A DNA stretch of 64,000 bases from positions 286,354 through 350,353 of the forward strand of contig OZ245054.1 of NCBI GenBank assembly GCA_965224715.1. Reading direction: 5' to 3'. Shown piece by piece: positions 18,001 through 21,000 of this stretch (positions within the stretch are counted from its first letter, which is position 1; the number at the start of each line of letters is the position of its first letter). A program made the position numbers. Source of the stretch: Spirochaetota bacterium. Lineage in GTDB: Bacteria; Spirochaetota; UBA12135; COTS27; CAXSBA01.

Positions 18001-21000
18001 AACCGAAGCATTTTCTAATGACACAGTATCACCGATGCCTTCTATCTTAACCCAATCACCCTTACTTACACTTATATTTTTTGTTTCCATTTTAAACTCC
18101 TTTATTTTTTCTTAAACCTTATCCAACCAAATATTCTCACCGACACAAAATACAAAAAAGCCCATAGCCGGTAATATAAACGTCTCCAATATCCCCTTAC
18201 CCCTTGGATATCCTCAATCATGGCACCGTAAAACTTAACATCGCACTCTAACCTGCGGAGGCTGTCTCCACCCTTAGCGTAGCCCTCATCGTGCTTCTTA
18301 CAGGAAGCATTAAAGAATATATGGTGCGGGGGAGGAATAAGTCCCTTAATGCCACAATAGATTTTTTCAGTTTTTATTTTTCTCATTTTATACCTCGTAC
18401 TTCTTTTTTAACTCCGCCTTTTTTTTCCTTCCCTCTGACAAAACTGTTTCTTTCATGGTTGCCGCTGCTTCAAAAAATCCAATCGCTTTATCCTTAGTTA
18501 ATATATAATCGCTATCATCTTTTGTTGCTATGGCCCATCCCTTATCAGGGTATACCCCTGCTTGGTATTGAGTGAGCAAATATAACCAGTTAGACTGTGC
18601 CGAAAGACTCATGGAGAATATTTTTCCGTCAAAGGTAAATCCTGCAAAGATAGCGGATTCTGTCTCGTTGTCGATTTCAGCGTATTTTTCTTGTAAAAAC
18701 TGTTGTAAATCATCCCCCTCCAATACTTTCTGTCTCCATTCTTTATTAACAGAGTCCCACTCATCCCATTGGCTACTTGGGATTTTTTGGGTGTGCGACT
18801 CTTTAATCTCACCCAAATAGTCAACCTCTAATTCTTGTTGGGTTAGGGTGTCATAGACAACCTCGCCACGGTGATCTTCTTGGAGCCTCCACTCCACACC
18901 GTTGAACACTGGGACCAGTCCTTTTTTAAAATCGGGAGGCTTAATGGTTGTCGCGAACAGAGGAACAATCACCCTTTCTTTCGCCGGCGATATCTCCTCC
19001 CCAGCCTCTATAATAGGAGGGTCTATTGTAATTTTAGCTTCATTTTCAGAAATTAATTCTTTAGTGTCTTGGTCGTAATTGTATATAATCATTTTCAATG
19101 CTCTCAATGTTTGATGTACGCTAAGAGTGCAATATTCTTAGGTCGAGTCTCATATCCACCACTATAATGTGTGTTGAGTGTGCCAGTTCGAACATAACCT
19201 CTAGTCATCTCATATTCCCAGTTTGTATTATTATCCGCATCACGGTCATATATATGTATCGAAGTTCCATGTCTATGTGATTTGAAACTGTCAGCTTGGT
19301 AGCTACCTACTGTACGATCATGTGCCTTCGCACGAATAAACTTATTTCTGAAGTCTGGAATCCGCATCTTATTGCCATTAACATAAAACAATCCATAATT
19401 GTTCGAAGCACCTATCAGCCCATTTGTCTTTACAAAATAATATAAATCTTTATATGTTATAGTACTTACAGTTTGCCCATTTAATTCTAAGCATTCAGGT
19501 GAAAGCACATACCCATATCCTATCTCTCCAACAGGCACGTTGGTTTTAGAACGATATAATAAGTTATTCTCCCCATCAAACTCCACACCACTGTCGTAAT
19601 CAGATGTGTAAATTGAATTATAGTTACCTTTAACATTAAATGGCCACGTCCTTTCTGCTTGCCGAAGAGAAAGATTCCTTGCGTTTTTAATTTCATTAGC
19701 ATTCATTCTAATGTAAGCTTTACCAGAATCATATTTTAAATCTACTAAGAATTGACTTGGGAGATATCTCATGTCGATAGTGCATCCCTGTACAAAGTTG
19801 ATCAGTGTGGTATATAAATAATGACGACTAACATCAACTGCACAAACCCAAGCAAAGCAATTAATGCTTTCAACTTTTGACAAATCAACGTGAGTAAAAT
19901 CATATTTCCAGAAACTGATAAGTGGAAACAACTCCTTATCCAAATAACAATCAAACAACGGTATATAATTACTGTTAAAATTGATCGGATCTATTCTTTT
20001 AAATTCTTGACTGATTATGTCATATACAATATATTCATGGAACTTTCCGGATACTGTCCTGAAACGTAAGTTTGTTTTAACAATTTGTTTTCCTTTCCAA
20101 TACATTACCATCTTATCGAACCTGAATTCATGGCCACCTAGTTCTATTAAGACTATCTTAAGCCCCCAATATCTCACCACCGGCAAATGATTATAAAAGC
20201 TTTCTAAAGTTTGATTGAGGTTCTCATGCCCCATTCGTGCTTGGACTACCTCGTTATCGGTGGTAACCTTGGCAATGTCGGTAAGAACACTCTCGGTGTA
20301 GTCGTACCCCTTTTGAATTTGGCGAGAAACATTATCCTGACTCGCTGGTTGTGTAACTCTAACTGTTGGCTTTCCGTTCGCCATTTTAAACTCCTTTTTT
20401 AATCCTCTTACCCATTAACTCCTTTTTTTAAAGGTAAGCGATCTTATATCATCATCTACAATAGTAGAAATCCTATCAATTATAACACAAAAAAGGGGGT
20501 AAGTGGGCTATAACTCATTTTCCCCATATAGCACCTGTGTCCCATTCACTCTCCCAATCAAACCTTTTGGGGGTCCACTCCCCATTTTTCATAACATCAA
20601 GGGTATAATCAAATTTAAAATCCCTCCCTATGTTGAAACTAATCTTTTTCCCAACAGTATATCCATACCACCCTAGCCCAGTATCGCCACCACTAGCAGG
20701 AAGCACTTCTACATTTACCTGTCCTCCCAGGGGGGCACTTATAAAATTGGTGGTCATTTGGAAAGATTCCTTGCTGTTTTCCTGTTTGACTTTCCACGCT
20801 AAAAAACTCAATCGCTCATTGTAGGGCACAAACACATTCATCACCTCAAGAATCTCTCCCGTGCCGATGTCATAATATTCATCATTCCTCACCACATCGC
20901 CACTTCCCTCAAACAAGGTTACCTTGCCATTCCTTCGTCTAACCTCCTTCTCGCTTTTGTAGGGATGATCAGATTCGTCCTCTTTTGTAAACTCTCCGTC

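What a model noticed while it worked through the whole genome (the two positions that open the first line are those of the whole stretch)
20427..20544. Prophage RNA decoy joining host Cas9 repeat and Cas12a handle
Between two tail-region genes the resident prophage carries, on its coding strand, a lone copy of the host's type II-C Cas9 repeat followed 7 nt later by the host's Cas12a crRNA handle. I read it as a two-in-one RNA anti-CRISPR: read-through RNA gives a Cas9 decoy that pairs with the host tracrRNA, and the extended -10 box built into the end of the Cas9 repeat starts a transcript at about the Cas12a handle. A single phage RNA locus aimed at two CRISPR types, using one system's repeat as promoter for the other's decoy, would be new and a compact off-switch for both editors.
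Evidence so far: C1:306832-306867 matches the Cas9 array repeat 34/36; C1:306807-306824 matches the last 18 nt of the Cas12a repeat 18/18, the longest hit outside the array (others 14 nt or less; call 26). The phage repeat cofolds with the predicted tracrRNA (upstream of cas9) at -41.6 vs -41.5 kcal/mol for the host repeat. The repeat ends in a TGnTATAAT box 7 nt before the handle. The same prophage also has a Cas9 mini-array (301647-301802, 2 spacers; call 26). The phage is under attack by both systems: host Cas9 spacer 14 of 28 matches 301906-301935 at 27/30 with the 3 mismatches at the PAM end, and a contig in an independent run (X5) joins a Cas12a repeat to 22 nt of this prophage (303085-303106; call 120 [...]
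(Added by a program. Inside this text positions count along the whole contig: contig position 286,354 is position 1 of the stretch shown here. "Call 12" and the like, gene names such as g00115 and contig names such as C1 are that model's own, and its searches are not shown. The text may have been shortened before it was handed on; [...] marks where a part breaks off. The agent that wrote the report below was given it as the finding of a first reader that could run no searches.)

Follow-up and report, generated by a model that had tools for sequence, protein, structure and literature searches.

The report
Prophage RNA joining Cas9 and Cas12a
A prophage carries a copy of its host's Cas9 CRISPR repeat placed seven bases before the exact RNA handle that the host's Cas12a binds; the promoter inside the repeat likely makes a small RNA that would tie up Cas12a, and other phages join the same handle to repeats of other CRISPR types.

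Summary
The sequence is as described: a 34/36 host type II-C repeat, 7 nt, then an 18/18 host Cas12a handle, between two tail-region genes of an att-bounded prophage. New: a decayed second half-repeat follows at one-spacer distance, so this is a Cas9 mini-array whose spacer is the Cas12a handle. The tracr-pairing 17 nt, the -10 box and the handle are unchanged, while the bases between them have drifted, also in a second strain. Best reading (0.55): the repeat-borne promoter likely starts an RNA at the handle that would sequester Cas12a (Racr-like). The Cas9-decoy arm is weaker (two-in-one about 0.35). Against: no RNA data, no nearby terminator or acr genes, no PAM-flanked target, one lineage, and no second II-C/handle fusion in three collections. 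For: 12 of 112 sampled viral Cas12a-handle contexts (a few families) have a type I-B or I-C repeat end just upstream (0 of 112 control), so cross-type units recur. The scan noted that class earlier on other DNA (e1-5842592; part of it later fell); this Cas9 version was not among the notes I saw. Racrs, Cracrs and viral scaRNAs are published; I found no paper on mixed-type units.

The parts
20479..20514 (-). Copy of the host type II-C (Cas9) repeat, starting right after the stop codon of the 405-aa gene; nt 1-17 (20514-20498) pair with the tracrRNA anti-repeat
   Evidence: 34/36 to the host repeat, both changes in nt 18-27; duplex -21.9 vs host -23.4 kcal/mol
20479..20487 (-). Extended -10 box (TGnTATAAT) at the 3' end of the repeat; predicted promoter
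   Evidence: Sequence; unchanged in run X3; II-C repeat promoters described in PMC5965381 and PMC7038990 passages
20472..20478 (-). 7-nt linker; predicted transcription start at 20475-20472; G in place of the usual A at handle position -19
   Evidence: Start inferred from 23-26 nt of spacer in II-C crRNAs; G at -19 in 2 of 16 natural promoter-handle loci; 3/7 to the host Cas12a repeat
20454..20471 (-). Host Cas12a (type V-A) crRNA handle, 18/18
   Evidence: hairpin probability 0.97 in the short RNA, 0.48 in read-through RNA; unchanged in X3
20433..20450 (-). Decayed 5' half of a second Cas9 repeat; with 20453-20451 it forms the 'guide' of the Cas12a-type RNA
   Evidence: 12/17 with one gap, shuffle p 0.0004 at this offset; CTTACC lies 40 nt after repeat 1, which equals a 29-nt spacer + 11; weak tracr duplex, -13.0
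20395..20412 (-). Stretch resembling the tracrRNA anti-repeat (14/18); predicted to pair in cis with the decayed half-repeat; lies between two duplicated Shine-Dalgarno stretches and may be chance
   Evidence: About 26 non-repeat sites reach 14/18 in 4.2 million positions; fold -15 kcal/mol, z -1.9
20515..21732 (-). Upstream 405-aa gene, no family, no homologue found
19104..20384 (-). Downstream tail collar/fibre gene
   Evidence: PHROG 523, E 5e-15
15293..15450 (-). Second Cas9 mini-array (repeat-spacer-repeat-spacer-partial repeat); spacer 2 matches the phage's own spanin-like gene end at 28/30
6557..33389 (.). Prophage with 25-nt direct repeats at 6557 and 33365, the latter in a tRNA gene

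Best explanation
The 130-nt gap between two tail-region genes holds a captured one-spacer Cas9 mini-array whose spacer is the host's Cas12a handle, and the promoter inside the first repeat likely starts a short RNA at that handle, which would load into Cas12a with a non-targeting guide and so act as a competitive decoy. Shown: the layout, the identities to host repeats, intact-looking host Cas9 and Cas12a loci, and the pattern of conserved and drifted blocks. Inferred: transcription, start site, Cas12a loading and inhibition. A second, less certain output is read-through RNA carrying the intact first 17 nt of the Cas9 repeat, which would pair with tracrRNA and divert Cas9. The second repeat has decayed and now probably serves only as the guide part of the Cas12a-type RNA. 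The element looks like a type II-C version of mixed-type crRNA mimics that other phages build from type I-B or I-C repeats plus the same handle.
For: (1) Block pattern against the host: repeat nt 1-17 17/17, nt 18-27 8/10, -10 box 9/9, linker 3/7, handle 18/18, second half-repeat 12/17. (2) Sample X3 differs at 5 places in the 130 nt, none in the three conserved blocks; alone this is weak (p about 0.13, my arithmetic). (3) The captured Cas12a piece is the functional 18-nt handle and sits 7 nt after the -10 box. Among 16 distinct lone-handle loci with a -35 box, the spacing is 7 in 9 and 9 in 7 (range allowed 4-9). (4) The hairpin is free in the short RNA, p 0.97. (5) Cross-type units recur: 12 of 112 distinct viral handle contexts have a class 1 repeat end within 110 nt upstream, 0 of 112 on the opposite strand. 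A targeted scan gave 31 loci, 24 non-coding in five sequence families read by eye, most with a terminator-like hairpin. Matching repeats form real arrays beside I-C and I-B Cas1. (6) V-A Racrs and CracrVA1 (19-nt handle + 21-nt guide) inhibit Cas12a experimentally. (7) Both host systems hold spacers against this phage family.
Against: No terminator-like site on the minus strand until 17119, so the promoter would read into the tail-fibre gene. No acr/aca-like gene was recognised nearby, unlike most Racr, Cracr and vsgRNA loci. One lineage only: no other II-C repeat + handle fusion in viral, genome or metagenome collections, nor in 74 other lone promoter-handle loci, 113 viral contexts or 12 CACAAY loci. 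In runs X3 and X4 the prophage is a remnant (junction 7527 to 19478). In X3 the element is whole, while X4 covers only the first 12 nt of the repeat. The X4 run also has a Cas12a spacer to the deleted part, so retention need not mean function. A spacer-mutated CracrVA1, which is a pure decoy, did not block immunity in its test. The handle folds only half the time in read-through RNA. The 12 of 112 are a few related families, not 12 events.
Confidence: 0.55

Rival explanations
1. Neutral remains of recombination with host arrays. The Cas9 repeat replaced a PAM at the gene end and the handle replaced a PAM in front of a former Cas12a target; the DNA became uncuttable and no RNA is under selection.
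For: A repeat directly after a gene end and a handle directly before a stretch is what PAM-replacing recombination would leave. The other mini-array sits beside a copy of its own spacer. The element persists in a decaying remnant with 7 non-synonymous and 5 synonymous coding changes. The idea comes from note e1-5675414.
Against: The handle lies inside a repeat-spacer-repeat frame of normal length. Both repeat changes avoid both functional ends. The captured piece is exactly the functional length. No host spacer matches either flank. Recurrence of cross-type units elsewhere.
Confidence: 0.22
2. Cracr-type repressor: Cas12a loaded with this RNA binds upstream of cas12a and lowers its expression.
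For: The first 14 guide bases match the cas12a upstream region at 12/14, rank 2 of 654 non-coding upstream windows. As an RNA duplex it ranks 1 of 654; both mismatches allow G.U pairs. 0 of 300 control 14-mers ranked cas12a that high.
Against: The site is preceded by CATG, not TTTV, and no 12/14 site in the genome has TTTV. The two PAM-contact lysines (positions recalled from FnCas12a) are conserved. Guide base 1 mismatches. The rank depends on length: 65, 38, 2, 6 and 102 of 654 at 10, 12, 14, 16 and 18 nt. The X3 allele breaks base 13. The guide resembles extended -10 boxes in general. No host CreR-like handle exists.
Confidence: 0.09
3. A working Cas9 guide. The RNA pairs with tracrRNA through the second half-repeat and aims Cas9 at handle-bearing DNA (a rival phage's decoy gene or the host Cas12a array); or read-through RNA aims Cas9 at sibling phages through the gene end.
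For: Repeat-spacer-repeat geometry. The other mini-array carries a sibling-phage allele, as in known interviral mini-arrays (PMC6858448 passages). The X3 change at 20441 improves tracr pairing.
Against: The second half-repeat pairs weakly (-13.0 vs -23.4), has a bulged lower stem and is predicted to be tied up in cis. No host handle is followed by the same 5 nt. No 3' seed longer than 7 nt in the cas promoter or leader regions. The Cas9 PAM is unknown.
Confidence: 0.09
4. A moron-like internal promoter or processing site that tunes tail-fibre mRNA, with host Cas proteins cutting the leader.
For: No terminator follows, and a duplicated Shine-Dalgarno stretch leads into the fibre gene.
Against: It does not explain why two systems' parts are kept. 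No precedent was seen in the papers read.
Confidence: 0.05

Closest known systems
Racr / viral solitary repeat units, including RacrVA1-3 (PMC10651486; passages, sections 9 and 12, supplement searches)
   Same: Phage-borne, cas-less mimic of a host repeat in an intergenic region behind a predicted promoter; V-A members inhibit Cas12a.
   Different: Not solitary: it joins parts of two CRISPR types, carries only the 18-nt handle, and its promoter is another system's repeat. SRUFinder discards repeats with neighbouring repeats. Its table lists I-B units like those of the Bacteroidales-type loci as lone I-B repeats, and one V-A handle variant next to them had 0 hits.
CracrVA1 and Cracr arrays (bioRxiv 10.1101/2024.10.29.618823; parts 1-2 of 9 and passages; supplements not seen)
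   Same: Promoter, 19-nt V-A handle, about 21-nt guide; competes for Cas12a.
   Different: No PAM-flanked promoter target, no terminator, no host CreR here. The paper states that Cracrs in one array always target the same CRISPR type.
vscaRNA, vsgRNA and rAcrIIA1 (bioRxiv 10.64898/2026.06.01.729453, parts 1-3 of 9 and discussion; 10.64898/2026.06.03.729762, part 1 of 5)
   Same: Phage RNAs with a Cas9 repeat part that pairs with tracrRNA, or a fused repeat:anti-repeat stem.
   Different: No guide to the cas9 promoter, no tracr tail, no dedicated upstream promoter, no acr neighbours. Those RNAs carry no Cas12a handle.
Virus-borne CRISPR mini-arrays (PMC6858448 passages; bioRxiv 10.1101/2023.03.03.530964 section 26)
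   Same: Repeat-spacer-degenerate-repeat without cas genes. The 15450-15293 array fits well.
   Different: At 20514-20433 the spacer is a CRISPR handle, not a viral target.
Repeat-embedded promoters of type II-C arrays (PMC5965381 and PMC7038990 passages)
   Same: Terminal nine bases form an extended -10 box and transcription starts in the spacer.
   Different: Here it would drive an RNA for a different Cas protein.

Membership tests
Racr (type V-A) | Mimics the cognate host repeat, on a mobile element, without cas genes | tested here: met
   18/18 handle in an att-bounded prophage
Racr (type V-A) | Solitary: no other full or partial repeat nearby | tested here: not met
   Cas9 repeat 7 nt upstream and half-repeat 3 nt downstream
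Racr (type V-A) | Expressed as a small RNA | not testable with these tools
   No RNA holder listed; promoter predicted only
Racr (type V-A) | Inhibits interference by binding the Cas protein | not testable with these tools
   Needs an assay
Cracr (type V-A) | 9 or more PAM-proximal guide bases match a cas promoter next to a TTTV PAM | tested here: not met
   12/14 match upstream of cas12a but PAM is CATG and base 1 mismatches
Cracr (type V-A) | Matching host CreR element | tested here: not met
   No handle-like copy near cas12a outside the array at up to 3 mismatches
Cracr (type V-A) | Intrinsic terminator after the guide | tested here: not met
vscaRNA | Repeat part pairs with the host tracrRNA | tested here: met
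   First repeat, duplex -21.9 vs host -23.4 kcal/mol; second half-repeat weak
vscaRNA | Short guide matching the cas9 promoter | tested here: not met
   Longest 3' run 5-6 nt
vsgRNA / rAcrIIA1 | Fused repeat:anti-repeat stem followed by a tracr tail | tested here: inconclusive
   An 11-bp cis stem with 14/18 likeness to the anti-repeat, but no tail before the next start codon
Viral CRISPR mini-array | Two host-type repeats one spacer apart, no cas genes | tested here: met
   29-nt spacer geometry; second repeat decayed
Viral CRISPR mini-array | Spacer targets another mobile element | tested here: inconclusive
   No target found in the genome or in phage records; no close relatives were available

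The most novel reading that the evidence does not exclude
One 130-nt phage locus jams both class 2 systems of its host. The Cas9 repeat titrates tracrRNA/Cas9 and also serves as the promoter for a Cas12a decoy. It is the Cas9 member of a wider, unpublished family of mixed-type crRNA mimics (I-B + V-A, I-C + V-A, I-B + I-C + V-A, II-C + V-A) built by placing one system's handle in another system's spacer slot.
Probability: 0.35. Interest if true: 0.82.

Novelty: new variant of a known kind. Interest (0 to 1): 0.64.

Why it matters
Published RNA anti-CRISPRs each aim at one CRISPR type, and the Cracr preprint says arrays always target the same type. A locus that joins Cas9 and Cas12a guide parts, and uses one system's repeat as the promoter for the other's decoy, would show that phages multiplex RNA inhibitors across CRISPR classes. 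It would suggest a simple route: capture of a handle into a spacer slot. It would also explain why solitary-repeat screens miss such loci. It is testable with a 150-nt fragment, and it points to a one-RNA off-switch design for the two main editors.

Tried and rejected
No RNA holder listed. Both read-laying runs used DNA or unlabelled contigs. Rfam gave only the tRNA in 12000-36000 and no gathering-level hit on 13 viral-locus submissions. Homologues of the 405-aa gene: none. Terminase relatives: 1 of 8 other genomes of the order, at 33-37%. The 17-nt repeat start gave 1 viral and 17 metagenome single hits; the viral one is chance, and I did not inspect the 17. It matched 6 of 40 relatives, mostly inside coding DNA or in what I read as the G001 tracr. 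II-C repeat + handle pattern: 0 in genomes, metagenomes and viral contigs; the pattern needs a 4-nt loop and a GYYDTAG start, so it can miss other repeat classes. BLAST of the element against phage records gave only short chance hits. A full-length Cas12a target for the guide: none at 5 or fewer mismatches. A TTTT-flanked 10-nt seed at C1:809214 was set aside as non-canonical and promoter-like. A plus-strand tracr mimic ending at the hairpin 20568-20584 was rejected: it lies in Trp/Gly codons and is near the shuffle rate. A hairpin at the fibre start resembling the tracr tail was rejected as coding. The handle-like hits in G001 (coding) and G004 (near a broken cas12a) are not phage elements. 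I first read the X4 spacer as seed-mismatched, then dropped that, because the tool may split a full 29-nt match with a TCTA PAM. Of the viral analogues, L272 and L285 did not beat their shuffles against the host repeats, L173 failed, and 7 of 31 targeted hits lie in ORFs and were treated as chance.

Full report
Observation. The element lies on the minus strand in a 130-nt gap, the second largest gap in an operon whose genes mostly overlap or abut. It sits between an unnamed 405-aa gene and a tail collar/fibre gene. The prophage runs from 6557 to 33389, with 25-nt direct repeats and a tRNA at the right end, and has integrase, replication, repressor, terminase, capsid, tape measure and endolysin matches. 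The host has a type II-C locus (Cas9 1099 aa, 28 spacers) and a type V-A locus (Cas12a 1332 aa, 65 spacers). The Cas12a RuvC motifs are present. The label 'spirochaete' comes from earlier notes, not from my calls. Window 20514-20479 is the host Cas9 repeat at 34/36 and 20471-20454 is the host Cas12a handle at 18/18; chance for the handle alone in the prophage is about 6e-6.

Three bases after the handle comes a decayed 5' half of the Cas9 repeat (12/17 with one gap; p 0.0004 in 5000 shuffles at that offset; 15 other clusters in the prophage, besides this one and the four real repeats, score as well). Its CTTACC core lies 40 nt after the first repeat, which equals a 29-nt spacer plus 11; 2 of 28 host spacers are 29 nt. 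So the locus is a one-spacer Cas9 mini-array whose spacer holds the Cas12a handle. Twenty bases further a stretch matches the tracr anti-repeat at 14/18 (about 26 non-repeat sites in 4.2 million positions) and is predicted to pair with the decayed half-repeat (z -1.9). These two likenesses are not independent, and the second overlaps Shine-Dalgarno-like sequence, so I give it little weight. The tracr anti-repeat at C1:955140-955124 pairs with repeat nt 1-17/18.

Conservation. Against the host, the three blocks with a predicted job (repeat nt 1-17, the -10 box, the handle; 44 nt) have no change. The stretches between them have 2 of 10, 4 of 7 and 5 of 17 changed. If everything was captured at once this means selection; if the pieces arrived at different times it does not. 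Run X3, another sample, spans the locus on one contig with 3 substitutions and 2 one-base deletions in the 130 nt, none in the three blocks (p about 0.13 by my arithmetic). In X3 and X4 the prophage is a remnant: a shared loose end joins 7527 to 19478, and good cover ends near 25813. Coding changes in X3 over 19727-23621 are 7 non-synonymous and 5 synonymous. X4 does not cover the handle region of the phage. A contig in X4 carries a Cas12a repeat joined to 22 nt of the deleted part, and host Cas9 spacer 14 matches 15553-15582 at 27/30. Both systems have met this phage family.

Mechanism. Type II-C repeats carry an extended -10 box in their last nine bases, and crRNAs keep 23-26 nt of spacer (PMC7038990 passages; PMC5965381 passages). 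That puts the start at 20475-20472, 0-4 nt before the 19-nt handle position. In 16 distinct lone-handle loci with a -35 box, the -10-to-handle spacing is 7 in 9 and 9 in 7, and base -19 is A in 14 and G in 2; the element has 7 and G. The handle hairpin has probability 0.97 in the short RNA and 0.48 in read-through RNA. The product would look like CracrVA1, a 19-nt handle plus a 21-nt guide. The guide has no full target. Its best regulatory lead is 12/14 upstream of cas12a, rank 2 of 654 and rank 1 as an RNA duplex, but the rank falls to 38 at 12 nt and 102 at 18 nt, and the PAM is CATG. PAM-contact lysines align with FnCas12a (residue roles recalled). I therefore prefer sequestration to repression. 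I note that a guide-mutated CracrVA1 did not block immunity in its assay, while RacrVA1-3 did when overexpressed. The Cas9 arm needs read-through from the late operon, and none of the Cas9-type guides has a seed above 7 nt in cas promoters or leaders. There is no minus-strand terminator until 17119 and no recognised acr gene nearby.

Related loci. No second II-C repeat + handle fusion was found (0 hits; 0 of 74 other loci; 0 of 113; none among 12). But an unbiased sample of 120 viral handle loci, out of about 1000 stretches, showed class 1 repeat ends upstream in 12 of 112 distinct contexts, against 0 of 112 on the opposite strand; these are a few families of relatives. A targeted scan gave 31 loci, 24 non-coding in five families read by eye and 7 inside ORFs. 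They include I-B + handle + I-B + terminator, one or two I-C units + handle, and I-B + I-C + handle; a diverged three-type pair keeps all three units (L200, L321). The upstream boxes look like Bacteroidota promoters (motif recalled). Such repeat ends occur in 21 of 301 and 4 of 301 sampled Bacteroidales-group genomes, mostly as long arrays, beside I-C and I-B Cas1. Alignment scores beat 200 shuffles clearly for L200 and L288, for the downstream unit of L271 and L283, narrowly for L274 and L278, and not for L272 or L285. After finding these I looked at the scan's notes: e1-5842592 reports the same class from a Bacteroidales phage, marked 'part of it fell' without saying which part. It is not independent support.

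Literature. Racrs (PMC10651486; passages; sections; supplement searches), Cracrs (bioRxiv 10.1101/2024.10.29.618823; parts 1-2 of 9; passages), vsgRNA/vscaRNA (10.64898/2026.06.01.729453; parts 1-3 of 9 and discussion), rAcrIIA1 (10.64898/2026.06.03.729762; part 1 of 5) and viral mini-arrays cover each part separately. The Cracr text says arrays always target the same type. SRUFinder drops repeats with neighbours, and its table lists I-B units like those of the three-type loci as lone repeats. Ten full-text searches and passages of one 2026 review (PMC13131331) showed no mixed-type RNA locus. Most subscription papers and all bioRxiv supplements were out of reach.

Verdict. Real, and not a member of Racr, Cracr or vscaRNA by their defining tests, but most likely working like a V-A Racr. 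Odds: Cas12a decoy from the repeat promoter 0.55 (including about 0.35 for the full two-system reading), neutral scar 0.22, Cracr-type repression 0.09, Cas9 guide 0.09, leader regulation 0.05. New variant of a known kind; interest 0.64.

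Noticed in passing
L200, L321, L322, L325 (IMG/VR viral contigs), about 110 nt around the handle: Three-type units: type I-B repeat, short spacer, type I-C-like repeat, short spacer, Cas12a handle, short guide, terminator. 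Repeats and part of the first spacer are kept between diverged copies.
   Followed up: partly
L271, L273, L275, L276, L279, L280, L282, L283, L295, L298, L300; L274, L278, L281, L286, L289, L290, L293; L272, L287; L285, L296; L288, L294: Five families of phage loci with type I-B or I-C repeat ends 0-6 nt before a Cas12a handle, in non-coding DNA.
   Followed up: partly
window 15293-15450 and 15454-15483: The second mini-array is wedged between convergent genes and overlaps both stop codons. Spacer 2 is a 28/30 allele of the adjacent spanin-like gene end, so it likely aims at sibling phages; spacer 1 has no target in the genome.
   Followed up: partly
window 7527 joined to 19478 in runs X3 and X4: Other strains carry a remnant with a 12-kb deletion that removes the targets of Cas9 spacer 14 and of the X4 Cas12a spacer; possibly CRISPR-driven prophage decay.
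   Followed up: partly
G000:C1:1224110-1224123: Minus-strand extended -10-like box upstream of cas12a that matches the phage guide at 12/14; it may start a short divergent RNA ending at a hairpin near 1224060.
   Followed up: partly
G004:C7:187384-192265 (L117, L142-L144): A relative in the same order has Cas9 and a broken, internally shortened cas12a, with a single handle-bearing repeat about 2 kb downstream and a terminase-small-subunit-like ORF (read by eye) nearby.
   Followed up: partly
L319, L320, L021, L038: A large phage family with several separate promoter + Cas12a handle + guide + terminator units carrying different handle loops, one preceded by a short palindrome.
   Followed up: no
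L227:1-419: A Cas12a-handle look-alike among repeated inverted GGCACC/GGTGCC hairpins (REP-like); probably chance.
   Followed up: no
window 13540-14349: Prophage gene next to the repressor with an HSDR_N_2 (type I restriction R subunit N-terminus) match; possible defence moron.
   Followed up: no
G000:C1:1228237-1228831: The short reading frame between cas12a and cas1 reads like a Cas4 gene with a non-ATG start (read by eye).
   Followed up: no
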